From IMG/VR virus record IMGVR_UViG_3300045988_025679, positions 1 through 30,607 of that record: a stretch of DNA of 30,607 nt. One strand, given 5' to 3'. The notes below the pieces were generated by a model. It saw only the letters and a program-made list of their open reading frames with translations. It was not told where the DNA came from and did not search any database. Of this stretch, positions 3,045 through 23,490 are shown piece by piece. Source of the DNA: a virus. Made by a program: the position numbers and the translations under genes. Numbering within the stretch: position 1 is the first letter of the stretch; every line of letters starts with the position of its first letter.

Positions 3045-3938
3045 ATGCTATATTCTGACAAATTACATTCTTGGTTAAAAGAAAAGAAAATCTATCTAAA
3101 ATACAGCACTTACACAAATTATTGTAATGTGATTCATAATCACGTATTGCCAACACTTGGCACATATAAAATTGAAGAATTGAATAACGATATTCTGCAA
3201 GAGTTTATTCTTCAAAAACTTGAAAATGGTCGTAAAGATGGAAAAGGTGGCATTTCTTTTAAATATGCCAAAGACATTATTCAAATTCTGAAGTTCACAC
3301 TTCCATTTAAAATCGATATTCAACTTCCATACCATCCTCCTACGGCGGTAGAAATTTTTGAAAAAGAAAATCAAATCTCATTGATTAATCACCTCCAATC
3401 TGAGATTAATTACAAAAACTTTGGAATCCTGTTATGCATCCACACTGGAATACGCATAGGTGAACTATGCGCTTTGAAATGGTCTGATATAAACATTCAA
3501 ACCAAATTGTTAAAAATAGATAAAACCATGATACGTACATACACAAAAGAAGACGGTAGTCATCTTTCAATAACACCGCCTAAATCACGTTCTAGCACTC
3601 GTATGATTCCTCTTAACGCTTGGATAATGCATTATGCTATATTGCTTCAAGGTGATGCAGATAACTATGTATTAACGAATCGAGATAAACCGATAGAGCC
3701 TAATAAATACAGGCTTTACTACAATCGACTACTTAAAGACCTTGAACTTCCACACCTCAAATTCCACGCATTAAGACACACATTTGCAACAAGATGCATT
3801 GAATGTGGTTGTGATTATAAATCACTTAGTGAATTACTTGGCCATTCCAATGTTTCGATCACTATGAATATCTACGTTCATCCTCAAATGGAATTAAAAA
3901 GAAAATGTGTAGAATTACTTTGCGATTACTACAAGTAA
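3045..3938 (+). CDS. Tyrosine site-specific recombinase, proposed shufflon invertase (Rci/CreX-like role)
   Basis: 297 aa. It has an N-terminal SAM-like core-binding region and the catalytic signature: box I HTGIRIGELCALKWSDI, PPKSRSSTRMIPL, box II HALRHTFAT, LGHSNVSIT and nucleophile Tyr in MNIYVH (Y277). It is the only full-length plus-strand gene, and its stop codon lies 2 nt from the left inverted repeat of the cassette segment. Confidence 0.9.
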   Translation: MLYSDKLHSWLKEKKIYLKYSTYTNYCNVIHNHVLPTLGTYKIEELNNDILQEFILQKLENGRKDGKGGISFKYAKDIIQILKFTLPFKIDIQLPYHPPTAVEIFEKENQISLINHLQSEINYKNFGILLCIHTGIRIGELCALKWSDINIQTKLLKIDKTMIRTYTKEDGSHLSITPPKSRSSTRMIPLNAWIMHYAILLQGDADNYVLTNRDKPIEPNKYRLYYNRLLKDLELPHLKFHALRHTFATRCIECGCDYKSLSELLGHSNVSITMNIYVHPQMELKRKCVELLCDYYK

Positions 3939-3940
3939 AT

Positions 3941-3977
3941 GTATGTCTTTTACTACTGATTCGAGCGGTGGTGAATA
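3941..3977 (+). repeat. Recombination site B (cassette 1): GTATGTCTTTTAC core inside a 37-bp perfect inverted repeat
   Basis: GTATGTCTTTTACTACTGATTCGAGCGGTGGTGAATA is identical to the reverse complement of 5034-5070. Confidence 0.85.
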
Positions 3978-4221
3978 CTATCATAAACTTACACGTGAAG
4001 AGCTACCGAGCCATACGCATTGGATCTTAGACCAACAAACTGATGTAACCACTGCATTATATGGTAATCCATATAGTGATGTACCTTTTACGAGAGCCAC
4101 TGAACGTGCTAATAGAACTAATTATTATTGGTACGGTCAAACATGGCCAACAGGCGGAAACAAACCACACGATAATGTACAACCTTACGTGGTAACTTAC
4201 TTTTGGAGACGTATCAAGTAG
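3943..4221 (+). CDS. Silent tail-fibre C-terminal cassette 1 (92 aa)
   Basis: The cassette begins MSFTTDSSGGEYYHKLTREELPSHTH and ends HDNVQPYVVTYFWRRIK, parallel to the last 100 aa of the 629-aa fibre. There is no Shine-Dalgarno sequence before the ATG. Its orientation is opposite to the fibre gene. Confidence 0.8.
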   Translation: MSFTTDSSGGEYYHKLTREELPSHTHWILDQQTDVTTALYGNPYSDVPFTRATERANRTNYYWYGQTWPTGGNKPHDNVQPYVVTYFWRRIK

Positions 4222-4494
4222 CTATTTTACCCTTCGCCAAAAGAAAACAACTAAATATGGTTGCACGTTATTGTGTGGAATATTGCCACCAGATCCATTT
4301 GTATGAATACTATTTACATTGTGACTTTGACCATCAGAATGATGCGAACCATTAATGGCCATAAATTCCCACGGAGTAGTTGTTAAAACGCCAGACGTAC
4401 CCCATATACCAACTTCGTGTGCGTGAGCAGGCATTTCAGAATATGATAACGTATGATAGTATTCACCACCTTCAGAATTGGTTGTAAATGACAT
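4222..4494 (-). CDS. Silent tail-fibre C-terminal cassette 2 (90 aa from the internal Met)
   Basis: The homologous part starts at MSFTTNSEGGEYYHTLSYSEMPAHAH (ATG 4494) and ends HNNVQPYLVVFFWRRVK. The 20 extra codons in the ORF track (to 4554) run antisense across the cassette 3 start and are probably not meaningful. No RBS is present. Confidence 0.75.
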   Translation of the reverse strand: MSFTTNSEGGEYYHTLSYSEMPAHAHEVGIWGTSGVLTTTPWEFMAINGSHHSDGQSHNVNSIHTNGSGGNIPHNNVQPYLVVFFWRRVK

Positions 4495-4496
4495 AC
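4480..4496 (-). repeat. Recombination site C (cassette 2)
   Basis: The reverse complement reads GTATGTCATTTACAACC and shares the GTATGTC-W-TTTAC core with the other three sites. Confidence 0.75.
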
Positions 4497-4514
4497 CTAT
4501 ATAACCGATTAAAA

Positions 4515-4531
4515 GTATGTCATTTACATCC
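4515..4531 (+). repeat. Recombination site D (cassette 3)
   Basis: GTATGTCATTTACATCC. It forms a 14-bp perfect inverted repeat with site C across an 18-bp spacer (4497-4514). Confidence 0.75.
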
Positions 4532-4765
4532 GGAAAAACATACGGAGAATACAAGCACCAACTAACAATACAAGAAATGCCTAATCATGCGCATAAATTT
4601 AATGACTGCGCTTGGATTGACGGAAAAGGAAATATCCAATCCGCATCAAATAACTCATGGTTTAATGGTGGCTATATGAGTAATACAACAAACACAGGAG
4701 GAAACCAAGCACATAATAATTTACAGCCATCCATTGTAACTTACTTTTGGAAACGAATTAAATAA
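4517..4765 (+). CDS. Silent tail-fibre C-terminal cassette 3 (82 aa)
   Basis: MSFTSGKTYGEYKHQLTIQEMPNHAH ... HNNLQPSIVTYFWKRIK. There is no RBS. Its stop codon abuts the stop codon of the expressed fibre gene. Confidence 0.8.
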   Translation: MSFTSGKTYGEYKHQLTIQEMPNHAHKFNDCAWIDGKGNIQSASNNSWFNGGYMSNTTNTGGNQAHNNLQPSIVTYFWKRIK

Positions 4766-6655
4766 TCATTGCGTTCTTCGCCAAAAGAACGTGGTTATGT
4801 AGGGTTGAACGTTATTATGATGCACATTATCTCCTGCCCAACCAGTATAAACAAACGCAGAAGCATCTGTGGCATTAACCTTTTCATTTGGAGTGACATA
4901 GTTTTTTGTGCTTCTATCAATCATTACTCCAAAACTGTCAATAGTTCGTTCCTCCCAACCAGCATATCCTTTAACCATCAATCTCACACTATGATGATGT
5001 TTCGGCATTTCAGTTTCTAGCAGTTTGTGCTTATATTCACCACCGCTCGAATCAGTAGTAAAAGACATACTTGTACTACCATCGTTTCCAGTACCTTCTC
5101 CGACCAAAGTTCGACCTTGACCGAACTGTTCCCAAGTTCCACCCAAGAATGTTCCTGGGTTCTTTTTATCGTATGTGATATAGACTGCGCCAACCGGGAA
5201 TATCTTATTTAAGAAAATAGGAGCTACAATATCACCTAGTACAGTTAATGTATCTTTTTGATTAGCGTCTTGACCAAAGAGCGTCAATGATCTTCCATCT
5301 TTACCAAAGTTTATCAATGAGTAAGCAGGAGCTACAGTAAATATTTGCCATGAATAATCACTCATGAACTTATCCTTAACGCCGAACGCAACCTCATAGG
5401 AACTTGTTGCAGATGTGAATAAATTACCTGCTTTGTAATCTTGTTCAAGCGTGTAGTTGTTATCCCACGAATTTATTTTCGTCCATGAACTAGCACCACT
5501 TGCTCGATATTGAATATAGAATGATGTTACATTCTTATTGCTTAAACTAGTAAATCCAACTTTGAAGTGTAATAAAGCATATGTACCACTTGCCTCATCA
5601 ATCGCATAACTTGAGTTAGCACGTTTTGCAGTTACATTCGTTAAGCTTGGGGGACTGTATGCAGATACAGTGACCGAACCACTCTTAGATGAAGTTCGAC
5701 CACGTGAATCTGTAACTGTGATTGTGTACGACAACTTGCCACTTCCCTGTACAGTACCTGTAGTAAATGAACTATCATTATATGTTTGTCCTTCAAATTT
5801 AGTTGATACAGATGTAACAGTTGAGCCTTGACTACCACTTGTAGCAATTGAGAACTTTAATCTTGATTGACTTTGAACATGTTGACCTATTCCTACGCAG
5901 ATTGAATTTGTATCAGATATCGAGACCGTTCCAACACTAGGAACGACTCCACTTCTTACTTTAATTGTTGCATTTACTGATTTTGAGCCAACCGAAGTTG
6001 AACCACTGAATGTTTCTAATGTAAATGTAGCAATTCCGCTTATCGAATTAGGTAAGTCCTTTTCCCATGCGGTAGGAATCGTATAAGAAAAAGTGGGTGT
6101 TAATGTCCCACTTATCGTTGTTAATTCACTTGTTTTACCATTCCATGTTGCGTAGATTTTATGTGTAAAGTTTTTTGAAGCACTCGAGCCATTAATATTT
6201 ATAGTGTTACCACATTCAATACTAGGACTATCAATAGATATACTTGATGCTCTTGGAATAGTTGTCAATTTAACTGTACCACTGCAAGAACCAGTAATAG
6301 GTGCATAATATCCAGAGTTACTTCCACTGAAAGATGCACTTACCGAAATTGTTTTTGATCCATCTGCATCATGTGAAATAGTTACTGCTCCACTTTTTAC
6401 ACCGACAAGTGTATTTACTGGTACATTAGGTGTAAAGCTTTGGTTTAACACTTGAGTACCATTCACGGATACTGTAAATGTTTCAGGAATTCCGTTGTGT
6501 GTATGGTACTGCGTATTTGAACGAATACCGACCCACCACTCTACATATGATGTGTTATTTTCAACAGAATAAGATATTTCATTGATTCGCAGTATCAACG
6601 AATACTTATCCCACTGGCCACTACCAATTTGTATTCCGCCACTAAATTCTGCCAT
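4766..6655 (-). CDS. Tail fibre / receptor-binding protein with a switchable tail-collar-like C-terminal tip
   Basis: 629 aa, immediately downstream of Tal. The middle is Ser/Thr-rich and beta-like. The C-terminal region IFPVGAVYITYDKKNPGTFLGGTWEQFGQGRTLVG ... GGEYKHKL..EMPKHHH ... HNNVQPYITTFFWRRTQ fits the tail-collar/fibre-tip family pattern. Confidence 0.85.
   Translation of the reverse strand: MAEFSGGIQIGSGQWDKYSLILRINEISYSVENNTSYVEWWVGIRSNTQYHTHNGIPETFTVSVNGTQVLNQSFTPNVPVNTLVGVKSGAVTISHDADGSKTISVSASFSGSNSGYYAPITGSCSGTVKLTTIPRASSISIDSPSIECGNTININGSSASKNFTHKIYATWNGKTSELTTISGTLTPTFSYTIPTAWEKDLPNSISGIATFTLETFSGSTSVGSKSVNATIKVRSGVVPSVGTVSISDTNSICVGIGQHVQSQSRLKFSIATSGSQGSTVTSVSTKFEGQTYNDSSFTTGTVQGSGKLSYTITVTDSRGRTSSKSGSVTVSAYSPPSLTNVTAKRANSSYAIDEASGTYALLHFKVGFTSLSNKNVTSFYIQYRASGASSWTKINSWDNNYTLEQDYKAGNLFTSATSSYEVAFGVKDKFMSDYSWQIFTVAPAYSLINFGKDGRSLTLFGQDANQKDTLTVLGDIVAPIFLNKIFPVGAVYITYDKKNPGTFLGGTWEQFGQGRTLVGEGTGNDGSTSMSFTTDSSGGEYKHKLLETEMPKHHHSVRLMVKGYAGWEERTIDSFGVMIDRSTKNYVTPNEKVNATDASAFVYTGWAGDNVHHNNVQPYITTFFWRRTQ
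5034..5070 (-). repeat. Recombination site A, inside the expressed tail-fibre gene
   Basis: This is the reverse complement of 3941-3977. It lies at codons ..STS-MSFTTDSSGGEY.., exactly where similarity to the cassettes begins. Confidence 0.85.
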
Positions 6656-14921: not shown

Positions 14922-15649
14922 TTATCCCTCCTTTTTATTTATGAACTCTGCCAACTTATCAAACTTGCTTTGTTTCTTTATTCCCATGACACGATCCAAC
15001 TCTTTCTGATAGTCAAAGAACTTGCTAAATTTCGTGTATACCATTCTCTGTTTCTTGCCAACTTGCTTTTTAGCTTGTGCAGTCATATTTAGGTATGCTT
15101 GCAAATGCAGATAATACTGATCATCCACCATTTGTAGCTCTTTGGCCTTCATTAAAAGACGATATTCGTAAGGGGTAAGATTATTTACCTGATCCAAACT
15201 TTTGAAGTCTAGATATCTAAAACAAGTCAAAGCGACACGCTCATACATTTCATCAAATGTTTCGTCTATTTCTTCTCTTCTTTCTCTTCTTTCTGCATGC
15301 TCGTCATCAGTGATTTCACTTCTTTCTTGCACGCATTCGCTTGAAATAAAAAATTGAATACGTCCTCAAAAACTTTGTCGATATCTTCTACATCTTCTAA
15401 ATATCTTTCAATGTATGCTTTATTTAAACGTGGTGTTTGCCCAATATTCATACAGAAGATACAATCGACTAATGCATCAATATCTCCATCCATGATGCTT
15501 GCGACCATAAACTTCAAACCTACTTCTTTTTTGTTTTTAGTGTTTGGCACATCCACAGTCACTCTTTTATTGACTTCATGTAAAAATCCAAACCCTGCTA
15601 CTAGTTGATATGTTTCACCATTTACTTCAATTTCCATGTATTTACTCAT
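14922..15649 (-). CDS. Tail assembly chaperone GT, predicted product of a programmed -1 frameshift
   Basis: The G frame joins the -1 frame ORF (14922-15332 in the track, open back to about 15370). The join is at the slippery heptamer T_TTT_TTA (minus strand; plus-strand coordinates 15347-15353). The predicted fusion is about 240 aa. Confidence 0.65.
15266..15649 (-). CDS. Tail assembly chaperone G
   Basis: 127-aa acidic ORF between the major tail and tape measure genes. It overlaps a -1 frame ORF that continues to 14922. Confidence 0.8.
   Translation of the reverse strand: MSKYMEIEVNGETYQLVAGFGFLHEVNKRVTVDVPNTKNKKEVGLKFMVASIMDGDIDALVDCIFCMNIGQTPRLNKAYIERYLEDVEDIDKVFEDVFNFLFQANACKKEVKSLMTSMQKEEKEEKK
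15347..15353 (-). promoter_or_regulatory. -1 ribosomal frameshift slippery heptamer TTTTTTA (X_XXY_YYZ in the G frame: aaT TTT TTA)
   Basis: Read directly from the sequence. The zero frame is ..GTA TTC AAT TTT TTA TTT CAA... The -1 frame is open from a TGA 21 nt upstream of the heptamer through to 14922. Confidence 0.6.
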
Positions 15650-15704: not shown

Positions 15705-16250
15705 CTATACATTTCCTTCTTCTTTTTTAACATCTTTATAAACGTAAGATGCTACTTCCTGTTGCTCTTTTGTTACTGTTGCATATCCATCTGCACCATT
15801 TCCATTTGCTCCGAATGTTAAATCAACTTCAACAACTCCTTCTGCTTCTGATGAAATTGAGCATTCAGTCAAATATCCTTGGTAGTATTTAGATTTAAAC
15901 TTGCCGACATTTGTTTCAGTTCCTTCTTCTGCTAGGTTTACTTCCCAACATTCGACTAACTTATCTGCCAACATGGCTTTTTCTAATTTGTCGATAATTG
16001 CATCACCTTTTGCCAAAACAGATGTTGATGTGATTTCAATTTCTGCCACTGATGGTGTACGAATAGTTCCATCTTTTGTAGCAGTAGTATCTGCATCTTT
16101 TGTTACGTTTCGTTCGTTTTCTGTTGGGAATGCAATTGCACTAGCATCTTCTTTTTTTGAATCTTCTGCAACTCTGAAAAGATAGATCAACTGTTTACCT
16201 GCAACTGATTCTTTCATTGCTTCTGCGAACATTTGTAAATCAAATTTCAT
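15705..16250 (-). CDS. Major tail (tube) protein
   Basis: 181 aa, positioned between the tail terminator and the chaperones. Composition is TP901-1-like. The N-terminus MKFDLQMFAEA carries the LQMFA motif. Confidence 0.8.
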   Translation of the reverse strand: MKFDLQMFAEAMKESVAGKQLIYLFRVAEDSKKEDASAIAFPTENERNVTKDADTTATKDGTIRTPSVAEIEITSTSVLAKGDAIIDKLEKAMLADKLVECWEVNLAEEGTETNVGKFKSKYYQGYLTECSISSEAEGVVEVDLTFGANGNGADGYATVTKEQQEVASYVYKDVKKEEGNV

Positions 16251-16660
16251 TATTTTATTCCTCCTGTAATTCTAAAATCCAACTCTAGAACACCATGCAT
16301 CAATGGTGCTCCTGTACTTGAATCCGATAATATCCGTTGGTTGATATTTTGGATCATAAAAGCAAAGTTGTTTGTGTGGTTGATTTGTCTAGCCACTTTC
16401 TTAATGGTTTGCATAATTTCAGACAATTCTCCACGCTTCCTAGGATTGTTGTGCCAAACATCCACAACCTGCGTGATAGTGCCTAGAATCATTGTTTTAT
16501 TTCCGTAATCGTCCACTAGTTGACTTGAACCAATGTATACATATGGATATGGTGTCCCTTCACCTGGAAGAAACGTGTCATATACATTAACGCCTTTACT
16601 TTTTAACGCTTTTTCTAATTGCACTTTTAGTGCAATGAATAACTCTTGTTGTGAATCCAT
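16250..16660 (-). CDS. Tail terminator / tail completion protein (DUF3168-like)
   Basis: 136 aa, directly upstream of the major tail gene. It carries the pattern ..VYDTFLP....PYVYIG....ITQVVDVWH. Confidence 0.6.
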   Translation of the reverse strand: MDSQQELFIALKVQLEKALKSKGVNVYDTFLPGEGTPYPYVYIGSSQLVDDYGNKTMILGTITQVVDVWHNNPRKRGELSEIMQTIKKVARQINHTNNFAFMIQNINQRILSDSSTGAPLMHGVLELDFRITGGIK

Positions 16661-16668
16661 TGCATCAC

Positions 16669-17016
16669 CTACTTAACTAGTTTTTTCATGTCTGACTTGA
16701 ATATTGGTACTTGTTGTTTAAACGCAGGCCTAACAAAAGGTTGTGCATCTATAAAACGTGTTCCAAATTCAACATAAGGTGCATAATGTGTAGATGGTCC
16801 TTCTGCATATGTGAATCCGCCATCACGTGTTTCACCTCTGATACTTCTTTTCGTAGTGCCTGTTGAATACCCTTTTGTAAATACTGCATTTTTAACAGTT
16901 TTATTTTGCATATCCATTCCATTCTTCAAAACAACTGTTTTCACATCTTCCAAAGAACAATTCTTTTTGAGCTTCTTCTGCAGTTTATCTAATCCTCTTA
17001 TTTCAACTTTTGCCAT
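16669..17016 (-). CDS. HK97 gp10-family head-tail joining protein
   Basis: 115 aa. MAKVEIRGLDKLQKKL ... HYAPYVEFGT ... AQPFVRPAF is typical of the HK97 gp10 family. Confidence 0.75.
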   Translation of the reverse strand: MAKVEIRGLDKLQKKLKKNCSLEDVKTVVLKNGMDMQNKTVKNAVFTKGYSTGTTKRSIRGETRDGGFTYAEGPSTHYAPYVEFGTRFIDAQPFVRPAFKQQVPIFKSDMKKLVK

Positions 17017-17018
17017 AT

Positions 17019-17321
17019 CTACTGCACCTCAGACAGAATAAAAGACTCCTTTGTCCGGAGTCTTCGTGAGTAATCTACTTTGTATTTCTTTGTACCGATT
17101 CTAATATGATCAAATGGCTTTTGATAGATGTTCTGTATATGACAAGTAAGGCTACCTTGTCTGATTTGCCCGTATACCTGCATCATAGTTTCAGTTCTTG
17201 TATCCATTACGGAAGCCATTACCATTTCTTCTACAGGCGAATCATCTTCATAGTTGCCTGTATTCTCGTTATAAGAGCCTTGCACAAATCTTTGAAAGTA
17301 AATAGGTTTATCGTACCTCAT
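17019..17321 (-). CDS. Head closure / head-tail adaptor protein (SPP1 gp16-like)
   Basis: 100 aa, assigned by its position between the gp6-like connector and the gp10-like protein. The assignment rests on gene order and size. Confidence 0.55.
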   Translation of the reverse strand: MRYDKPIYFQRFVQGSYNENTGNYEDDSPVEEMVMASVMDTRTETMMQVYGQIRQGSLTCHIQNIYQKPFDHIRIGTKKYKVDYSRRLRTKESFILSEVQ

Positions 17322-17653
17322 AAGAACCGAACCTTTCCTTTATTTTGATTGGCTTGCTCATCTCTCCAAGATTGAATCTCAGAAGAGAAAGAAGAGAAGT
17401 CATCATCATTAAATGACATTGACTCCCCTTCAACTGAATGTGTTTGAACACCCTCAGAACCAATCCTATTAAAGCGTTTGATGGACACTTCGGTAATGAT
17501 ATATTCGAGTTCATCCGGTATGATTTTTACGCTCAGAAGCGCTTTTAGTCGACTTTCCGTAAGTCTTACAATGGTATCTAGCTTTTCATCATCAGTTTGC
17601 AAACCAAGAAGCAGTTTTACATCATTTAATACGGTTGTTGTCGACATCTTCAA
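17318..17653 (-). CDS. gp6-like head-tail connector (DNA-packaging QLRG-type) protein
   Basis: 111 aa, immediately after the capsid gene. The N-terminus ..VLNDVKLLLGLQTDDEKLDTIVRLTESRLKALL is typical of this family. Confidence 0.65.
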   Translation of the reverse strand: MKMSTTTVLNDVKLLLGLQTDDEKLDTIVRLTESRLKALLSVKIIPDELEYIITEVSIKRFNRIGSEGVQTHSVEGESMSFNDDDFSSFSSEIQSWRDEQANQNKGKVRFL

Positions 17654-17657
17654 TCAC

Positions 17658-18863
17658 CTACGCCTTTAAATCAACAACTACATCGCCTTTTGATACTGCT
17701 TTGTAGTTTCTGTCACATTCAACTACTGTACAATGATTAGATTCTGCTGCTTTGATATCTGCTCCTTCTTCGAAATTCTTCCAAGATTTTACATCTGTAC
17801 CATATGCCACTGTTTCTTCAGAAGCTCCTACCTTGAATTTGAATTTGTTATTCATAGATTGCAACTGTTCGTCAACTGCTACTTTTGTAGTTCCTGTTTC
17901 TTCACCTTTAGAAGCCGTTAATGTTAAATTACGCAATGTCTGAGTATCAGAACCACCTACTGCAAAGTGTGCAATTGCATCTTGGTATTCACACATTAAA
18001 CGTAATCCCATGATAGCGAACATATCAGAAATAGCACGATCATAGTTCCCTTCTACATGGAATCCTAAGAAGCCAGTAGTACTGTCAGTAGTATATGAAA
18101 GTCCTGCTTTAACAAATTCAGAATCGCTTGGATCTACGTAATATGCAATGATGTTGTTCATTGGAGTGGCTACTACTGTTTTTTCTGCTACTCGGTCTGT
18201 TAAGAATACAATATCTGCTCCTAAGAAGCTCTTAATGTATGTTAAACCGAATGCAGTCTGCATAGATACATTAGCTTCTCCTAAATAGCGGTAAGCATCC
18301 AATGTGTTGACGAATACGGCAATACCAGTAGTATTTCGTTTCATCTTCTGGAATTTGTGTTTAACATTACCGATTGCCATCGCAATTGCCATTTGCCAAG
18401 TTGCTTCATGTCCTACTAAGCTACCTGAGTTCAACTGTTTATATAAGTGATCAGTGATGTTATCTTGCAAATCAATACGGAATTGTTCATCTGTATCAGA
18501 TACTGCAGCTTCATATCCTTTCTCTGCAATTGCTTCAATTGGAACGGCTTTACGGAATTTCTCGATTTGAATTGTATCAAAAACTTCTTCTTCAACTTTA
18601 TATTCGCTTAATGGAATTGATTCACCTTCTGCTACATGTCCATCTTTTAATGTTCCTGTTACTTTCTTTGTTTTTAAAACAGAACCATTTGCTTTACGGA
18701 TTGGACGAATGATTCCTAATACATCTAATAAAGCCTGGATATTCTTTCCAAAACTAGTAACAAAATCAATTTCGTGTGCTCTAACTTGGATGTTGCCTGT
18801 TCCTGTTAATCCTTCAGGTGCTGCGAACATTTGCAAGTTCATACCTTTATAAATTTTTTTCAT
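17658..18863 (-). CDS. Major capsid protein
   Basis: 401 aa, located after the scaffold gene. The N-terminus MKKIYKGMNLQMFAAPEG carries a Prp-type cleavage motif. Confidence 0.85.
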   Translation of the reverse strand: MKKIYKGMNLQMFAAPEGLTGTGNIQVRAHEIDFVTSFGKNIQALLDVLGIIRPIRKANGSVLKTKKVTGTLKDGHVAEGESIPLSEYKVEEEVFDTIQIEKFRKAVPIEAIAEKGYEAAVSDTDEQFRIDLQDNITDHLYKQLNSGSLVGHEATWQMAIAMAIGNVKHKFQKMKRNTTGIAVFVNTLDAYRYLGEANVSMQTAFGLTYIKSFLGADIVFLTDRVAEKTVVATPMNNIIAYYVDPSDSEFVKAGLSYTTDSTTGFLGFHVEGNYDRAISDMFAIMGLRLMCEYQDAIAHFAVGGSDTQTLRNLTLTASKGEETGTTKVAVDEQLQSMNNKFKFKVGASEETVAYGTDVKSWKNFEEGADIKAAESNHCTVVECDRNYKAVSKGDVVVDLKA

Positions 18864-18884
18864 ATGTTAGTTCTCCTTTTTCTA

Positions 18885-19520
18885 TTACTGGAATAAATCC
18901 ATGTTTTCCGCAATCATGCGTTGTCTTTCCATCGGATCAGTGATATTCAAGATTGATTCACGAGTTACCCCTTTGTTTGAACCTCCACGTTTAGGACCGT
19001 TGCCTTTCAGTTTTTCTTTAACTGCTTTTTCTACTTCAGATTCAAACATCTTAACGAATGCATCAACCGCTTTCTTTGTTTTATCTGCATCTTGATTAAC
19101 TAGAACAGATAAAAGGTCATCACCAACGTTAATATTGTGCTCTGTGCACATTTTGCGTGCTTCATTTGTCATTTCTGCAATCGCATTTTTTGCTTTCAAT
19201 TCATCTAGCTCTTTTTGCACCTTGTCACGTTCTGCTTCTGCTCGTTCTTGTGCATTCATTTCTGCTAAGCGCTTAGCTTCTGCTTTTTCTTTTTCTTGAT
19301 CTGCTTTCCAACGTGCAAACCTTTTATCAAGAATCGCATTCAAATCTTCATCTGAGTACTTCTTTTCAGGTGCTTTGTTTTTTTCTTGGTTGTCTTGTCC
19401 CTCAGTTGATTTAGTCTGAGTTGATTGAGTGTTTTCTGTTCCTGTACTCTCATTCTCACCTGAAGTTTCATCTGCAAAAAGTTGTAAGCAAAAAGGTAGT
19501 CTGTCATTGAATTTTTTCAT
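18885..19520 (-). CDS. Scaffolding protein
   Basis: Start refined to ATG 19520 (AGGAGG 10 nt upstream), giving MKKFNDRLPFCLQLFADETSG... The protein is 211 aa, strongly charged and helical (KAEAKRLAEMNAQERAEAERDKVQKELDELKAK), and sits before the capsid gene. Confidence 0.8.
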   Translation of the reverse strand: MKKFNDRLPFCLQLFADETSGENESTGTENTQSTQTKSTEGQDNQEKNKAPEKKYSDEDLNAILDKRFARWKADQEKEKAEAKRLAEMNAQERAEAERDKVQKELDELKAKNAIAEMTNEARKMCTEHNINVGDDLLSVLVNQDADKTKKAVDAFVKMFESEVEKAVKEKLKGNGPKRGGSNKGVTRESILNITDPMERQRMIAENMDLFQ

Positions 19521-19580
19521 TAGTAAATTTCCTCCTATTTTTCTGACTTTGCTTGTCATTTCCCATATCTTTTTAAGGCT

Positions 19581-19628
19581 TAAATGCTTGGCCTGTAACC
19601 CATACAGTTTAACGACGTAAATGCTTGG
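19581..19628 (+). repeat. 11-bp direct repeat TAAATGCTTGG, two copies (19581-19591 and 19618-19628), in a 248-bp non-coding gap
   Basis: Exact copies 37 bp apart, between the Prp-like gene and the scaffold gene. Confidence 0.7.
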
Positions 19629-19768
19629 TCTTGTTTGGTAGTGTGGATATGTAGGCTTTATAAGTCTTGGCTTTTCCACAAAAAATGCACCGTTGATTAC
19701 GTACTTCAACGATGCATTCTAGCCATTGGTCAAAATAAACCTTTTCGACACGCTCCAAATATTTGTGA

Positions 19769-20077
19769 TTACACATCTCTTAGATCCACGTATTCCGGAT
19801 ACGCTTCTTCTGTGCCTTTGCATCCTATTCTGAAGAAATTAATTGCTAATTCTCCAGCAAGGTCCAAACCCGAGATATACAACGTCTTGCTATCTTTATC
19901 AGGTTCGTAATATCTACAAAGTGCGTCGGATGTTTCGTCGATTGAATTGGCCAATGTCAAAAATAGTACTGAGATAGCGCTGCAGACGATATCCTTTCCT
20001 ATCGGAGCGTAACGAGCATGGCCATGTAATTCAATCAAGCAATCACGTTCAGTCTGTCTAATTTTAATCTTTATCAC
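19769..20077 (-). CDS. prp: Prp-like cysteine protease (ribosomal-processing protease / DUF464 family)
   Basis: 102 aa with a GTG start overlapping the stop of the upstream small ORF. ELHGHARYAPIGKDIVCSAISVL matches the Prp His/Cys dyad signature (GHA ... G-x-DIVC-[AS]-x-x-S). Confidence 0.75.
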   Translation of the reverse strand: MIKIKIRQTERDCLIELHGHARYAPIGKDIVCSAISVLFLTLANSIDETSDALCRYYEPDKDSKTLYISGLDLAGELAINFFRIGCKGTEEAYPEYVDLRDV

Positions 20078-20603: not shown

Positions 20604-22160
20604 TCAGTTCCTTTCTATACCAAAACTATAGCCTTTTTTTAGGAACTTTTCAATAGCAACATCTTTATCTTTGTACTTTTCAACTATATCTTTCATAGCA
20701 GATTTTGCTTCCACAAAATTAAAGTTATCGAGTTTGTTGATATACCAAGTTTTTCCTTGATTTGTAACAATTGTCATTGTTTTTATAGTAGGATATGTCA
20801 TAAAAACATTTATATCATTCATAGAAAAGTAAGACAGTCCAGGATGATTATGTACTAATTCCAATGTGCGTTCATCAGAAGAAACTAATAAATGGAATGT
20901 ATCTGAATCACCTAAAAAGTCTACACTATCCTCTGTCCCTTTTACAAAATTTGTCGGTGTCTTCTCGGTGTTAGTTATTTTTCTTAGTGCTAAGACTTCA
21001 TTACTATTATTGTACTTCTTTGAATAGGATAATAATTCTTGTCTTACAAGCATCGACTCATGGGCTTCATCCTCTGTATACCCTGTTGGTCTAACATTTT
21101 TTATTTTGTTTATAGCCTGGCTTGTAATATTTACTTTATTTCCTTTTTTGTGTTGCTCTATTTGAGTATTAAAATAAATACTTTTCCACTCATCAAACCT
21201 TAAACTATGTTCTCCATTTGCTAATCCATTTAGCCATTTCTCATATATTCCTCTATCTGAATAAGGTGCGAGCGCACAATGACAGTTTGGATGCATAGGT
21301 GGAGCGTTTTCTCCTATTTCCATGTCTTTAAGCTTGAATGTTTTACCATCCATTTCTTTACACAACGGACACACATCTTTTAAGCTGCAGGCTATATATT
21401 CATACTCATCTATTCCATTCGCTTCGTAAGATTCTGCCTGCGCTTGTGTTTGAACTCGTGCTATTTCTGTTCGCAACAATCTTTCTGCATTGCATCTTGA
21501 TACATCGAATTTCTTTCGTATCTGAGGGATAAACTCTCTAGGATTCTTGCCTTGAATCAACGCATTAGATAGAACACTGGATAAACTGTTTTTTAGTTGG
21601 TCTTGATTGACCCAAATTCGTTCTGAAAAGGTTGCGTTCTTAAAAGATGAATCTGCTACTGTTTTGGCCATCTTCGCATTATCAATCACTGTATCACCTA
21701 AGATAGAAGCATTGCGTTTGATCTCTTCTAAATAAGCTCCTTCAAGCTTTTGACCAGTATAAGACTTCAATTCGTCATGGCCTGCCACAAGTTCTAATCC
21801 GATGTTTGCTTTTAAAAGCTCCAATCGGTTGACTTTCATTGCAAGGTTATACAATCGCATCTGCTCATTTGCTTCATCTGAAAAGTTCTTTTCCTTTACA
21901 TACTTTTTAGCTTTTCTTTTATATGCCTCGATATCTATGCTTGAAACTCTTTTTTTAGCTTCTGCCATAGTAATGTTTTCTTTGTTTGAATACCGACTAA
22001 AAAAGGATTCGATTTCCTTTTCAACCGAATCCAGCATATTTGCATATATTTCTTGTATCTCATCCGCATATTGCTTTTCATCTTTTAAGCGTTGTTTTTT
22101 CCATTCAAGCTCACGATCTCTCCAGTATGTATTACTGCTCATCGTATTCTGAATCCTCAT
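20604..22160 (-). CDS. Minor head protein (SPP1 gp7 / Mu F family) with a C-terminal RadC/JAB-like extension
   Basis: 518 aa; the more likely start is ATG 22142 (MSSNTYW). The MuF core includes CPLCKEMDGKTF...APPMHPNCHCALAPY. About 190 extra C-terminal residues contain NEVLAL...GTEDSV...ELVHNHPGLSYFSMND, which resembles the RadC/JAB pattern E...GT..SV...HNHPSG...PS..D. Confidence 0.75.
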   Translation of the reverse strand: MRIQNTMSSNTYWRDRELEWKKQRLKDEKQYADEIQEIYANMLDSVEKEIESFFSRYSNKENITMAEAKKRVSSIDIEAYKRKAKKYVKEKNFSDEANEQMRLYNLAMKVNRLELLKANIGLELVAGHDELKSYTGQKLEGAYLEEIKRNASILGDTVIDNAKMAKTVADSSFKNATFSERIWVNQDQLKNSLSSVLSNALIQGKNPREFIPQIRKKFDVSRCNAERLLRTEIARVQTQAQAESYEANGIDEYEYIACSLKDVCPLCKEMDGKTFKLKDMEIGENAPPMHPNCHCALAPYSDRGIYEKWLNGLANGEHSLRFDEWKSIYFNTQIEQHKKGNKVNITSQAINKIKNVRPTGYTEDEAHESMLVRQELLSYSKKYNNSNEVLALRKITNTEKTPTNFVKGTEDSVDFLGDSDTFHLLVSSDERTLELVHNHPGLSYFSMNDINVFMTYPTIKTMTIVTNQGKTWYINKLDNFNFVEAKSAMKDIVEKYKDKDVAIEKFLKKGYSFGIERN

Positions 22161-23490
22161 TGTTTTGGAAGATTCGGTTTTCAGTTTCTACCATATCATT
22201 CTCATCTTCCTTTTTAATACGTTCCATTTCGGCATTCGTATCTTCAACGGCCGAGATAAATGACAATTGCGTTTCGTGAGACACGATTCCTGATAATTGT
22301 GCAGCAGTCTGAGCTTCTTCTAATAAGTTTGCAGGATAATTCTGTGTGAACTTGTATTCAACCTCAAGCCAGTCGTTTTCAGAACGATGTGTGATCGCAT
22401 TACTAAATAAGACTCGATATCTACGGTTCATTCCAGATGTGAACTTTCGCTCTTTCGCTTTTGCAAGGTTTGACATAGAAAGAAGCTTATATCTCAATGC
22501 AATACCTGATGACGTTCCAAAGTTCTCATCATTGATATTGGCCACCATCGAGTTTTGGAAGATTAAACGTTCTAATCTGTTGATCAGATTTTCCTGTGTT
22601 GCATCTGCATTTGGCTTTGACATGAAATCAACTACAATTCCATCACCACTTCCATCCATTGACTCAAAGTTAATTGTTCGATTATCACGAATGTGTACCA
22701 AATCTGACTCTTCTAATTTTGGACCTAAGATTTTTAAATAGGCATCTGCGAAATAATCAACATCATTTGCTTTTTCTGACATTGCTTTGTTATAGGCATT
22801 GATCAAACTGTATGTTGATTCAAAAATAGACATACGTTCTTCATTTTCAATAAATTCAGTGGCCGGAATATCGTTGAATCCATGCTCTACACCATCAAAC
22901 ACATGAAGACCGCCTTTATCGTTGAACTCATACTTATATGTTTTGTCGTAGATATATCCACGCATAACCTCGTCAACAATCTGATAAGTTACGAAATATC
23001 TAGGCTTCTGAACTGTTGATTCATCATAAACCATGAATCCTTCTCTTGGATCTAAATAGGTAATCCCTAGATTTCCATAATCATCATTGAAATACAATTC
23101 ATATCCTTTTCCAAAAACACTACAAATCTTAGATAGTTCTGCATTGTTGTCGTCCTGATCATTGTATTTATCTAGCAAGTTGATATAATCATCAATTTCT
23201 TTTTTCTTAGATGATACTTTGATTGGAACGCCAATAAAAAAACCGTTGAATGTGTCAACAATGTATTTTGCAAAGTTGACAACCACACGGTTATCGGGTT
23301 TATAGGCTTCTTTGTTGGCTTGATGCAAGATTGGATAATCTCCAATATAGGCATCATATAGCTTTTTATATCTGTCTGTGATTAACGACTTATGACTTGT
23401 AATCAATCTATTCAACACTTCAATATTAAGGATGTCTTTGTCGTCAGATAGCTTAAATATCGTATCTGGTTTAATAATGTATGCGTTCAT
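22132..23490 (-). CDS. Portal protein (SPP1 gp6-like)
   Basis: 452 aa, located after terL. It carries NRVVVNFAKYIVDTFNGFFIGVPIKV and has an acidic C-terminus. Confidence 0.85.
   Translation of the reverse strand: MNAYIIKPDTIFKLSDDKDILNIEVLNRLITSHKSLITDRYKKLYDAYIGDYPILHQANKEAYKPDNRVVVNFAKYIVDTFNGFFIGVPIKVSSKKKEIDDYINLLDKYNDQDDNNAELSKICSVFGKGYELYFNDDYGNLGITYLDPREGFMVYDESTVQKPRYFVTYQIVDEVMRGYIYDKTYKYEFNDKGGLHVFDGVEHGFNDIPATEFIENEERMSIFESTYSLINAYNKAMSEKANDVDYFADAYLKILGPKLEESDLVHIRDNRTINFESMDGSGDGIVVDFMSKPNADATQENLINRLERLIFQNSMVANINDENFGTSSGIALRYKLLSMSNLAKAKERKFTSGMNRRYRVLFSNAITHRSENDWLEVEYKFTQNYPANLLEEAQTAAQLSGIVSHETQLSFISAVEDTNAEMERIKKEDENDMVETENRIFQNNEDSEYDEQ

What the first reader, a model, noticed from the sequence alone, without database searches (positions are those of the whole stretch)
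15705..20077. Phage-encoded Prp-like cysteine protease plus LQ(M/L)FA cleavage motifs on scaffold, capsid and, unusually, the major tail protein
ORF 19769-20077 carries the Prp signature (HGHA....GKDIVCSAISVL). In Staphylococcus aureus, host Prp removes the N-terminal extension of ribosomal protein L27 at a conserved NLQFFA motif. Phage 80alpha scaffold and capsid proteins carry the same motif and are processed by that host enzyme. Here the phage carries its own homologue directly upstream of three proteins with the motif close to the N-terminus. The scaffold has MKKFNDRLPFC-LQLFA-DE (19473-19487). The capsid has MKKIYKGMN-LQMFA-APEG (18822-18836). The major tail protein has MKFD-LQMFA-EAMK (16224-16238). 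The capsid and tail copies are almost identical at the nucleotide level (CAAATGTTCGCA). A tail tube protein as a Prp-type substrate, and independence from the host enzyme, deserve a closer look.
Basis: partly seen in the sequence, partly recalled or inferred. Interest (0 to 1): 0.6.

Follow-up and report, generated by a model that had tools for sequence, protein, structure and literature searches.

The report
Phage Prp protease with tagged substrates
A phage of the gut bacterium Holdemanella carries its own copy of the small protease that bacteria use to trim ribosomal protein L27, and its scaffold, capsid and tail-tube proteins each begin with the matching cut-here tag; the pattern is real and common in related phages, but nobody has tested the cutting at the bench.

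Summary
ORF 19769-20077 (-) is a Prp (PF04327, MEROPS C108) homologue. It has the catalytic His20/Cys32, all supporting residues and the Prp fold.

LQxF[AS] occurs three times in all six frames of the window. Each copy lies 4-11 residues behind the start codon of the scaffold, capsid or major tail protein; about 0.01 such N-terminal hits are expected by chance.

The tag is not unusual on the tail protein:
- 93 of the 120 homologues listed carry it.
- Homologues without it begin exactly at the predicted post-cleavage Ala.
- 52 of 52 related viral contigs with a complete head module also encode a Prp.
- Kizziah et al. 2017 already noted the tag on the phi13 tail protein.

Independence from the host enzyme is not shown. 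The likely host genus, Holdemanella, has its own rplU-prp-rpmA operon, and its L27 starts MLLKLDLQLF|ASKK.

The most likely mechanism is that phage Prp, perhaps with host Prp, removes leaders of 15, 13 and 8 residues during head and tail assembly. Cleavage itself is inferred.

I class this as a new variant of the phage 80alpha/host-Prp scheme. This scan has already flagged the same arrangement in at least 65 other genomes. Cultured phages with the same layout (Brochothrix BL3, Dorea DO134P1) allow a direct test.

The parts
19769..20077 (-). Phage-encoded Prp-type cysteine protease, 102 aa. Catalytic His20 and Cys32; supporting Gly19, Ala21, Gly27, Asp29 and Ser36.
   Evidence: PF04327 62.9 bits, E 3.5e-17. 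phrog_4478. G19/H20/G27/D29/C32/S36 are invariant across 65 family members. [quoted passage not shown] Foldseek top hits are S. aureus Prp 7KLD/7JVS, TM 0.81.
18885..19520 (-). Scaffolding protein (Gp46/DUF4355 family), 211 aa. Predicted 15-residue leader MKKFNDRLPFCLQLF|ADE.
   Evidence: PF14265 E 3e-31 and phrog_172 E 1e-48. Start ATG at 19520 behind AGGAGG. Leader conserved in 80 relatives.
19476..19520 (-). Scaffold leader, residues 1-15. Predicted cut between Phe15 (19478-19476) and Ala16 (19475-19473).
   Evidence: Motif position. The cut site is inferred from the S. aureus Prp F|A rule.
17658..18863 (-). Major capsid protein, 401 aa, with a C-terminal Ig-like domain. Predicted 13-residue leader MKKIYKGMNLQMF|AAPEG.
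   Evidence: phrog_544 E 3e-34; PF18316 at residues 319-395. Motif position.
18825..18863 (-). Capsid leader, residues 1-13. Predicted cut between Phe13 and Ala14 (18824-18822).
   Evidence: Conserved while the flanks vary in relatives.
15705..16250 (-). Major tail (tube) protein, TP901-1/Phage_tail_2 family, 181 aa. Predicted 8-residue leader MKFDLQMF|AEAMK.
   Evidence: PF06199 E 1.7e-14 and phrog_238 E 7e-49. Closest solved structure is the Brochothrix NF5 tail tube 9M7C, E 4e-39, which has no leader and starts MAEAKKG.
16227..16250 (-). Tail-protein leader, residues 1-8. Predicted cut between Phe8 and Ala9 (16226-16224).
   Evidence: Leaderless homologues start M-AEAIQGKK, exactly at the predicted P1' Ala. 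Column entropies in bits: P4 Leu 0.14, P3 Gln 0, P1 Phe 0.08.
20604..23490 (-). Portal (22132-23490) and Mu-F-like minor head protein (20604-22160). Together with the Prp gene they form the conserved module portal-MuF-Prp-scaffold-capsid.
   Evidence: PF05133 E 1.6e-115 and PF04233 E 3.9e-22. The same gene order appears in every related locus with a complete head module.

Best explanation
The window is the structural half of a siphophage whose host is most likely Holdemanella (Erysipelotrichaceae). Its head module encodes a diverged but catalytically intact Prp cysteine protease.

The scaffold, major capsid protein and tail tube protein are each made as precursors. Each has a short N-terminal leader that imitates the N-terminal extension of host ribosomal protein L27: P4 Leu, P3 Gln, P1 Phe, P1' Ala.

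A Prp-type enzyme cuts after the Phe and removes 15, 13 and 8 residues. I think this is chiefly the phage's own enzyme, made alongside its substrates, with the host Prp possibly contributing. One enzyme would then trim the three most abundant self-assembling virion proteins, of both head and tail.

Shown here: enzyme family, intact active site and fold; position, conservation and non-random nature of the leaders; co-occurrence of enzyme and leaders across phages; leaderless orthologues that start at the predicted new N-terminus.

Inferred: that cleavage happens, which enzyme does it, and why the phage needs its own copy. Possible reasons are supplying enough activity for roughly 800 cuts per virion, or not competing with L27 maturation.
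For: 1. Enzyme. PF04327 at 62.9 bits. The residues shown by mutagenesis or structure to matter in S. aureus Prp (Gly21, His22, Ala23, Gly29, Asp31, Cys34, Ser38) are all present at offset -2. G19, H20, G27, D29, C32 and S36 are invariant in 65 homologues. [quoted passage not shown] Foldseek's best hits are S. aureus Prp with bound substrate peptide, TM 0.81.

2. Substrates. There are exactly 3 motif hits in six frames, all N-terminal, against 0.012 expected.

3. Conservation. 76 of 80 close relatives keep all three leaders, while the residues after the cut differ (AEAMKESV, ADKVIEAV, ADAVLETV, ADSVVEAV). Across 105 tail homologues the constrained positions are those S. aureus Prp reads: P4 Leu, P3 Gln, P1 Phe, small P1', D/N/G at P5.

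4. Boundary. Leaderless homologues begin M-AEAIQGKK, at the predicted P1' Ala. So does the solved NF5 tube protein, MAEAKKG.

5. Co-occurrence. Among viral contigs chosen only by tail-protein similarity, 52 of 52 with portal and MuF present encode a Prp, and 50 of 52 have the tail leader. In 24 diverse Prp-selected contigs that carry all three genes, every scaffold and capsid has a leader-like N-terminus, and 19 of 24 tail proteins do.

6. A common reader. One phage (L181) has Tyr instead of Phe at P1 in all three leaders. P2 residues agree within genomes more than in shuffles: 101 against 73.9 +/- 3.9, 0 of 2000 shuffles.

7. Precedent. Host Prp cuts the same kind of leader from the phage 80alpha scaffold and capsid.
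Against: - No experimental N-terminus exists for any of these proteins.
- The host has its own Prp, and its L27 leader matches the same motif. The phage enzyme may therefore be redundant for these cuts or serve another purpose.
- In 80alpha, cleavage of capsid and scaffold is dispensable for viability, so cutting may not be functionally important.
- Tail leaders are absent in 5 of 24 diverse Prp-encoding phages. The tail tag is therefore optional.
- The within-genome P2 concordance is confounded by relatedness among the contigs.
- The phage-versus-chromosomal Prp tree lacks chromosomal Prps from Clostridia.
Confidence: 0.65

Rival explanations
1. The host Prp removes all three leaders, as in 80alpha. 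The phage Prp has a different main job. It might keep L27 maturation and translation going while phage precursors flood the host enzyme, or replace a host Prp that is shut down or targeted during infection.
For: - Holdemanella has rplU-prp-rpmA, with L27 starting MLLKLDLQLF|ASKK. This fits the same motif as the phage leaders.
- 80alpha, phi13 and phiEf11 carry leaders without a Prp of their own.
- A mobile-element protease can back up L27 processing in S. pneumoniae TIGR4.
Against: - The Prp gene sits inside the head module next to its presumed substrates in every related phage.
- Prp presence tracked the leader-bearing module in 52 of 52 contigs.
- The phage Prps form a group of their own, away from Bacilli chromosomal Prps, and share only 35% identity with the host enzyme. 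This points to long residence in phages.
Confidence: 0.2
2. The leader on the tail tube protein is kept rather than removed. It would act as an assembly or chaperone-binding tag, and only the head proteins are cut.
For: - In 80alpha the scaffold leader is needed for assembly but need not be cut.
- No tail tube protein has been shown experimentally to be cut by Prp.
Against: - The tail leader keeps exactly the scissile-site residues (P1 Phe, P1' Ala, P3 Gln), with near-zero entropy.
- Orthologues in other Prp-encoding phages lack the leader altogether and start at the P1' Ala. The mature tube therefore works without it.
- The solved NF5 homologue starts at that point.
Confidence: 0.1
3. The phage Prp homologue is catalytically dead or acts only as a chaperone, and the shared motif reflects some other constraint on highly expressed genes, such as translation initiation.
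For: - A chaperone role for Prp has been proposed for L27 (review section 3.3.2).
- The leaders are Lys-rich at the start (MKK...), which is common in well-translated genes.
Against: - All catalytic and loop-stabilising residues are invariant.
- The three copies use different codons for the same motif, so the constraint is on the peptide.
- The motif is absent from the other 38 ORFs, including abundant ones.
Confidence: 0.05

Closest known systems
Host-Prp processing of scaffold gp46 and capsid gp47 of S. aureus phage 80alpha (Wall et al. 2015; Kizziah et al. 2017, PMC5744158)
   Same: - Same enzyme family.
- Same kind of L27-like N-terminal leader, cut after Phe before Ala, with 13-14 residues removed.
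- Same scaffold family (PF14265, 'Gp46').
- SPP1-type portal plus Mu-F-type head module.
   Different: In 80alpha the enzyme is the host's essential ribosomal Prp and the phage has no copy. Here the phage carries its own, and a third protein, the tail tube, is tagged. The 80alpha tail protein gp53 is a leaderless homologue.
L27-like leader on the major tail protein of S. aureus phage phi13, noted in one sentence by Kizziah et al. 2017
   Same: A tail tube protein starts with the Prp motif. I read MIEKLKQAPRFLKLNLQHF|ADTG in NC_004617. This is the published precedent for a tail protein as a Prp substrate.
   Different: phi13 has no Prp. Its capsid has no leader, and the record annotates a head maturation protease of its own. 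Its 317-aa tail protein is longer than this one. Its cleavage was never tested either.
Chromosomal Prp/L27 system of Firmicutes (rplU-prp-rpmA; MEROPS C108)
   Same: Same fold, catalytic dyad, loop residues and recognition motif. The Holdemanella host copy is 104 aa, and its L27 leader is MLLKLDLQLF|ASKK.
   Different: The phage copy is 35% identical to the host one. It groups with other phage Prps rather than with Bacilli chromosomal Prps. It sits in a virion head module, not the ribosomal operon.
Cultured phages with the same layout: Brochothrix phage BL3 (gp6 'peptidase'), Dorea phage DO134P1, Lactococcus phage PLgT-1
   Same: - BL3: Prp plus leaders on scaffold (MLKNLKMNLQLF|A), capsid (MIKKLRMNLQKF|A) and tail protein (MNKIKMDLQKF|A).
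- DO134P1: an unannotated Prp ORF plus three leader-like N-termini.
- PLgT-1: Prp plus scaffold and capsid leaders.
   Different: In BL3 and PLgT-1 the Prp lies between portal and MuF, and their tail protein is much shorter (148 and 142 aa) with a different N-terminal sequence. The PLgT-1 tail protein has no leader. The records call the gene only 'peptidase' or 'ribosomal protein', or leave it unannotated.
Classical phage prohead proteases (HK97 gp4 / ClpP-like / T4 gp21 types)
   Same: A phage-encoded enzyme in the head module that trims capsid and scaffold during assembly.
   Different: This is an unrelated fold and mechanism. Those are serine proteases packaged in the prohead that remove long delta or scaffold domains. 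None is known to act on tail tube proteins.
Rrp (SP_1145), a mobile-element protease that rescues L27 cleavage in S. pneumoniae TIGR4 (bioRxiv 10.64898/2026.08.10.744006)
   Same: A horizontally carried protease able to act on the L27 leader. It shows that mobile elements can make the host Prp redundant.
   Different: Rrp is an Ntn-hydrolase/Anbu-like enzyme with loose specificity. It is not a Prp homologue and is not linked to virion proteins.

Membership tests
Prp / Peptidase_Prp (PF04327, MEROPS C108) | Profile match above the curated cut-off | tested here: met
   62.9 bits against a cut-off of 27, E 3.5e-17, covering 1-97 of 102 residues. Six-frame check 58.7 bits.
Prp / Peptidase_Prp (PF04327, MEROPS C108) | Catalytic His...Cys dyad 12 residues apart (His22/Cys34 in S. 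aureus) | tested here: met
   His20 and Cys32 in GHARYAPIGKDIVCSA. Invariant in alignments of 17, 65 and 40 sequences. Aligned to the GHA...DIVC of the S. mutans and S. pneumoniae structures.
Prp / Peptidase_Prp (PF04327, MEROPS C108) | Loop and helix residues needed for activity (Gly21, Gly29, Asp31, Ser38 in S. aureus numbering) | tested here: met
   Gly19, Gly27, Asp29 and Ser36 are present and invariant. Their roles are taken from PMC9405229.
Prp / Peptidase_Prp (PF04327, MEROPS C108) | [quoted passage not shown] | tested here: met
   AF2 model pLDDT 91.1, pTM 0.84, with elements E2-8, E12-18, H29-49, E53-60, E63-69, H73-92, E97-101. The top 14 Foldseek PDB hits are all Prp-family structures: 7KLD, 7JVS, 2G0I/J, 2IDL, 1S12, 4PEO.
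Prp / Peptidase_Prp (PF04327, MEROPS C108) | Location between rplU (L21) and rpmA (L27) | tested here: not met
   The gene lies between Mu-F-like minor head and scaffold genes. The host copy does sit in rplU-prp-rpmA. It is therefore a phage paralogue of the family, not the ribosomal-operon gene.
Prp / Peptidase_Prp (PF04327, MEROPS C108) | Site-specific cleavage after Phe in LQxF|A | not testable with these tools
   This needs an enzyme assay or N-terminal proteomics.
Prp substrates (L27-type N-terminal leader) | Leader of about 8-15 residues at the extreme N-terminus with P4 Leu, P3 Gln, P1 Phe and small P1' | tested here: met
   Scaffold ...CLQLF|A, capsid ...NLQMF|A, tail ...DLQMF|A, at residues 12-16, 10-14 and 5-9. 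Recognition rules. Entropy profile.
Prp substrates (L27-type N-terminal leader) | Leader removed in the mature protein | not testable with these tools
   Indirect support only: leaderless orthologues and the NF5 structure start at the predicted P1' residue.
80alpha-type scaffolding protein (PF14265, Gp46) | Profile match above the cut-off | tested here: met
   108.7 bits against a cut-off of 25.4, E 3e-31.
TP901-1-type tail tube protein (PF06199 Phage_tail_2) | Profile match and a solved homologue | tested here: met
   54.4 bits against a cut-off of 23.8. NF5 tail tube 9M7C E 4e-39 and 80alpha gp53 6V8I E 2e-19.

The most novel reading that the evidence does not exclude
The phage Prp is a fully competent L27-processing enzyme as well as the virion protease. 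A prophage of this kind would then make the host's essential prp gene redundant, providing a ready horizontal route around Prp-targeted antibiotics. The L27-type leader would be a general removable tag for very abundant self-assembling proteins, shared by ribosome, capsid and tail. Natural tail orthologues with and without the leader would let its function be dissected.
Probability: 0.3. Interest if true: 0.6.

Novelty: new variant of a known kind. Interest (0 to 1): 0.45.

Why it matters
Prp cleavage of phage proteins is known from one system, 80alpha, where the host enzyme does the work and the purpose of the cut is still unclear. Here a large lineage of gut Firmicute phages carries the enzyme itself: at least 574 viral contigs encode a Prp homologue. 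These phages extend the tag to the tail tube.

Three things follow:
- Natural experiments exist, because tail orthologues occur with and without the leader in phages that all encode Prp.
- Tractable cultured models exist (Brochothrix BL3, Dorea DO134P1).
- Prp is proposed as an antibiotic target, so it matters that Prp homologues travel on prophages, if they can also process L27.

The finding also corrects annotation. These genes are labelled 'peptidase', 'ribosomal protein' or nothing in public phage records.

Tried and rejected
- **Literature.** Seven full-text searches found no paper in the held library that describes a phage-encoded Prp or a tested tail-protein cleavage. The founding papers (Wall 2015, 2017) are not held. 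I cannot exclude that they mention phage homologues.
- **DNA similarity.** Megablast of the module against deposited phages gave only a 129-bp portal match, so no close cultured relative exists.
- **Host from the record.** The window is a stand-alone viral contig with no L27 gene. The host was inferred instead from a decayed prophage in Holdemanella porci.
- **Recent capture from the host.** Rejected: 35% identity, and the window's Prp groups with phage Prps. The tree lacks Clostridia chromosomal Prps, so the ultimate donor is open.
- **Wrong start codon.** I considered that the Met at P2 in LQMFA might be the real start. Rejected: the Shine-Dalgarno sequence sits before the first ATG, and P2 is L/I/K/T in relatives.
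- **Nucleotide identity of capsid and tail motifs.** As evidence for gene conversion this is too short to mean anything.
- **A second protease.** The C-terminus of the Mu-F-like protein contains HNHPGLSYFSMND, which resembles a JAB motif, but no Pfam match was found.
- **Small ORFs and the gap.** The small ORFs and the 248-nt gap around the Prp gene gave no family match and no convincing promoter or terminator.
- **phiEf11 virion proteomics paper.** It gives no N-termini.


Full report
**What is in the sequence.** The window is a 30.6-kb viral contig, estimated 73% complete. Nearly all its genes lie on the minus strand. From 25260 down to 430 they run in the classical siphophage order:
- small and large terminase, SPP1-type portal, Mu-F-like minor head protein;
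- three small ORFs, a 102-aa ORF, scaffold, major capsid;
- adaptor, head closure, neck, tail terminator, major tail protein;
- chaperone pair, tape measure, distal tail, tail-associated protein, receptor-binding protein;
- endolysin, at the far end after some small ORFs and the plus-strand recombinase region.

The 102-aa ORF (19769-20077) matches Pfam Peptidase_Prp at 62.9 bits against a cut-off of 27, and PHROG 4478 'peptidase'. Its GTG start overlaps the stop of the upstream ORF (ATGTGA), and the product begins MIKIKI like the host enzyme.

**Is the enzyme intact?** Published mutagenesis and a substrate-bound crystal structure of S. aureus Prp single out Gly21, His22, Ala23, Gly29, Asp31, Cys34 and Ser38. 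With an offset of two residues, the window protein has Gly19, His20, Ala21, Gly27, Asp29, Cys32 and Ser36. Six of these are invariant in a 65-sequence alignment that includes the host enzyme.

[quoted passage not shown] Its only weak segment is 21-28, which corresponds to the flexible clamp loop. Foldseek against the PDB returns S. aureus Prp with bound substrate peptide first (7KLD/7JVS, TM 0.81), followed only by other Prp-family structures. Family membership is therefore established by sequence, residues and fold. The one family trait not met is the ribosomal-operon context.

**Are the motifs real?** A six-frame scan for LQxF[AS] finds three hits in the whole window. All three are on the coding strand, 11, 9 and 4 residues after the first Met of the scaffold, capsid and major tail protein. 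From residue frequencies, 0.14 hits are expected anywhere in the 41 ORFs and 0.012 in their first 20 residues. None of 1000 shuffles gave three.

Each gene has a strong Shine-Dalgarno sequence before the first ATG. The predicted leaders are 15, 13 and 8 residues, close to the 13 and 14 residues removed from the two 80alpha proteins.

**Conservation.** Eighty IMG/VR contigs encode a Prp 84-96% identical to this one, and 76 keep all three leaders. One of the four exceptions is a contig cut short before the tail gene, one has a truncated scaffold frame, and two each lack one motif for reasons I did not examine. A sub-lineage (L057-L068, L081) has entirely different sequence before and after the motif but the same LQ[LM]FA core.

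Of the 120 listed homologues of the tail protein (53-99% identical), 93 have the strict motif in their first 30 residues. In the 105 with a recognisable leader, column entropy is near zero at P4 (Leu), P3 (Gln) and P1 (Phe). It is low at P1' (Ala, rarely Ser/Gly/Asn) and P5 (Asp/Asn/Gly), and high at P2 and beyond P3'. This is the pattern expected from the S. aureus Prp-peptide structure:
- Gln at P3 hydrogen-bonds the loop.
- Phe at P1 stacks on the catalytic His.
- P1' is size-limited.
- P4 and P6 occupy hydrophobic pockets.

**Where the mature protein would start.** Homologues that lack the leader begin M-AEAIQGKK..., exactly at the Ala that follows the predicted cut. The closest solved structure is the tail tube protein of Brochothrix phage NF5 (9M7C, E 4e-39). 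It begins MAEAKKG, and its position 2 (the Ala after the start Met) aligns with residue 13 of this protein. The mature tube protein therefore does not need the leader, and the leader is a discrete, detachable unit.

**Enzyme and tags travel together.** I fetched viral contigs by tail-protein similarity alone. Of those long enough to include portal and MuF, 52 of 52 encode a Prp homologue between MuF and scaffold, and 50 of 52 have the tail leader.

I also fetched contigs by Prp similarity. The 24 diverse ones that carry all three genes all have leader-like N-termini on scaffold and capsid, a few with Asn or Thr at P1'. Nineteen have one on the tail protein. Contig L086 shows the alternative state clearly: Prp, tagged scaffold (…RLDLQLF|AEEG), tagged capsid (MKVKERLNLQLF|AGEG) and an untagged tail protein (MAEAIQGKK).

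In one contig (L150) the Mu-F-like minor head protein is tagged as well (MFNLQLF|ASADYW). In L181 all three leaders carry Tyr at P1, and P2 residues agree within genomes more than in shuffled sets. This fits one enzyme reading all the leaders of a genome, although shared ancestry among contigs inflates the P2 statistic.

**Host and host enzyme.** The only representative genome holding a near-identical Prp (93% over 83 residues) is Holdemanella porci. There a decayed prophage stops inside the Prp gene and is followed by ordinary chromosomal genes. The Mu-F fragment upstream is nearly identical to the window's over the aligned stretch.

The same genome has the chromosomal rplU-prp-rpmA operon, with a 104-aa Prp and an L27 starting MLLKLDLQLF|ASKKGVG. 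About a dozen related genomes have the same L27 leader. The phage tail leader (MKFDLQMF|A, or MLKFDLQLF|A in relatives) resembles it closely.

The phage and host Prps are 35% identical. In a maximum-likelihood tree of 45 phage and 45 chromosomal (Bacilli) Prps, the two sets are separated by one well-supported branch (97/85). The window's enzyme groups with other phage enzymes. The gene is thus an old resident of phage genomes, not a recent pick-up from Holdemanella. The tree has no Clostridia chromosomal sequences, so the original donor is unknown.

**What is already known.** Host-Prp cleavage of the 80alpha scaffold and capsid is well documented. Kizziah et al. 2017 remark in their discussion that the same motif occurs on the major tail protein of phi13, and that Prp seems to associate with ribosomes, procapsids and tails. 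I confirmed the phi13 leader...LKLNLQHF|ADTG, in a phage without a Prp gene. Enterococcus phage phiEf11 has the leader on its scaffold only.

Deposited cultured phages already contain the full arrangement without comment:
- Brochothrix BL3: gp6 'peptidase', with tagged scaffold, capsid and tail protein.
- Dorea DO134P1: the Prp ORF is not annotated.
- Lactococcus PLgT-1: Prp with tagged scaffold and capsid, untagged tail.

I found no paper in the searchable library that describes a phage-encoded Prp or tests a tail protein as a substrate. The two founding papers are not held, so this is an absence in what I could read. Earlier agents of this scan reported the same arrangement on at least 65 other genomes.

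**Mechanism and its limits.** The best reading is that the phage makes its own Prp together with its substrates, and that a Prp-type cut after Phe frees the mature scaffold (196 aa), capsid (388 aa) and tail tube protein (173 aa).

Why the phage needs its own enzyme is not answered by sequence. A virion needs several hundred capsid, scaffold and tube subunits, so extra enzyme may be needed. The phage may also avoid starving L27 maturation. Alternatively the phage enzyme may have drifted in specificity: the position equivalent to S. aureus Phe42 is aliphatic in both the phage and the host enzyme, and P2 is Leu or Met rather than Phe (my reading of the sequences against the roles given).

What the leader does before removal is also open. 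In 80alpha the scaffold leader is essential for assembly while its cleavage is not. The main rival is that the host enzyme does the cutting and the phage copy protects ribosome maturation. A Cys32Ala phage, or co-expression in E. coli, would separate the two.

**Verdict.** This is a new variant of a known scheme. It is widespread in gut Firmicute phages and poorly annotated, it has one published hint for the tail substrate, and it has no experimental test.

Noticed in passing
window 3045-6655: A tyrosine recombinase (3045-3938, plus strand, PF00589 E 1.6e-28) sits beside nested inverted repeats: 3934-3989 against 5022-5077 (56 nt, 89%), 3936-3985 against 4452-4501, and 4510-4531 against 4480-4501 and 5058-5075. 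The repeats border short ORFs. At least one ORF (3943-4221) carries a Gp10_C-like domain homologous to the C-terminus of the receptor-binding protein 4766-6655. This looks like a shufflon-type system that swaps the receptor-binding tip of the tail protein, which would switch host range.
   Followed up: partly
L150:7742-8860: In one related Prp-encoding viral contig the Mu-F-like minor head protein also carries the leader (…MFNLQLF|ASADYWRKRE). This would be a fourth class of tagged virion protein. The window's own Mu-F-like protein has no leader.
   Followed up: no
L181 (IMGVR_UViG_3300029705_006942): All three leaders of this phage have Tyr instead of Phe at P1 (DLQMYA, DLQMYA, NLQIYA). It is the only such case among 64 distinct leader triples, and the change is coordinated across the substrates. 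Its Prp ORF is truncated in the contig, so the enzyme could not be compared.
   Followed up: partly
window 20604-20963 (C-terminal ~120 residues of the Mu-F-like protein): The minor head protein has a C-terminal extension containing HNHPGLSYFSMND, which resembles a JAB/RadC-type metal-binding motif one residue short. The H. porci remnant has LHNHPNSSLPSRDD at the same place. No Pfam family matched (best E 0.057, Cache), and PHROG 5057 is of unknown function.
   Followed up: partly
window 17679-17909 (capsid residues 319-395): The major capsid protein ends in an Ig-like domain that matches S-layer SbsC_C (PF18316, E 1.2e-10). It is probably a built-in decoration or adhesion domain.
   Followed up: no
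window 14922-15649: The tail assembly chaperone ORF (15266-15649, PF12363) overlaps the next ORF (14922-15332) by 67 nt in another frame. This is the usual layout for a programmed frameshift producing G/GT-like chaperones.
   Followed up: no
window 19521-19768: This lineage has a 248-nt gap between the Prp stop and the scaffold start, whereas more distant relatives such as L086 have the two genes abutting. The gap holds a 55-aa ORF (19609-19776) with two Cys pairs. It has no family match, and no convincing promoter or terminator was found.
   Followed up: partly
L082 (Holdemanella porci NZ_VUMR01000011, 23850-36098): This is a decayed copy of the same phage head module. The Mu-F fragment, small ORFs and a Prp gene are intact for 83 residues, then the sequence runs into an EamA-type transporter and a TetR-like regulator. 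It shows that such phages lysogenise Holdemanella, and that a Prp fragment can persist in the chromosome.
   Followed up: partly
L310 about 3260-3550 (Dorea phage DO134P1, OP172779.1 7436-7711): The deposited genome of this cultured phage has an unannotated ORF encoding a Prp homologue (…IEVTVRKDEIKISGHANYAACGQDIICAGV…). It lies just upstream of a tagged scaffold (MANLQLF|AEGD).
   Followed up: yes
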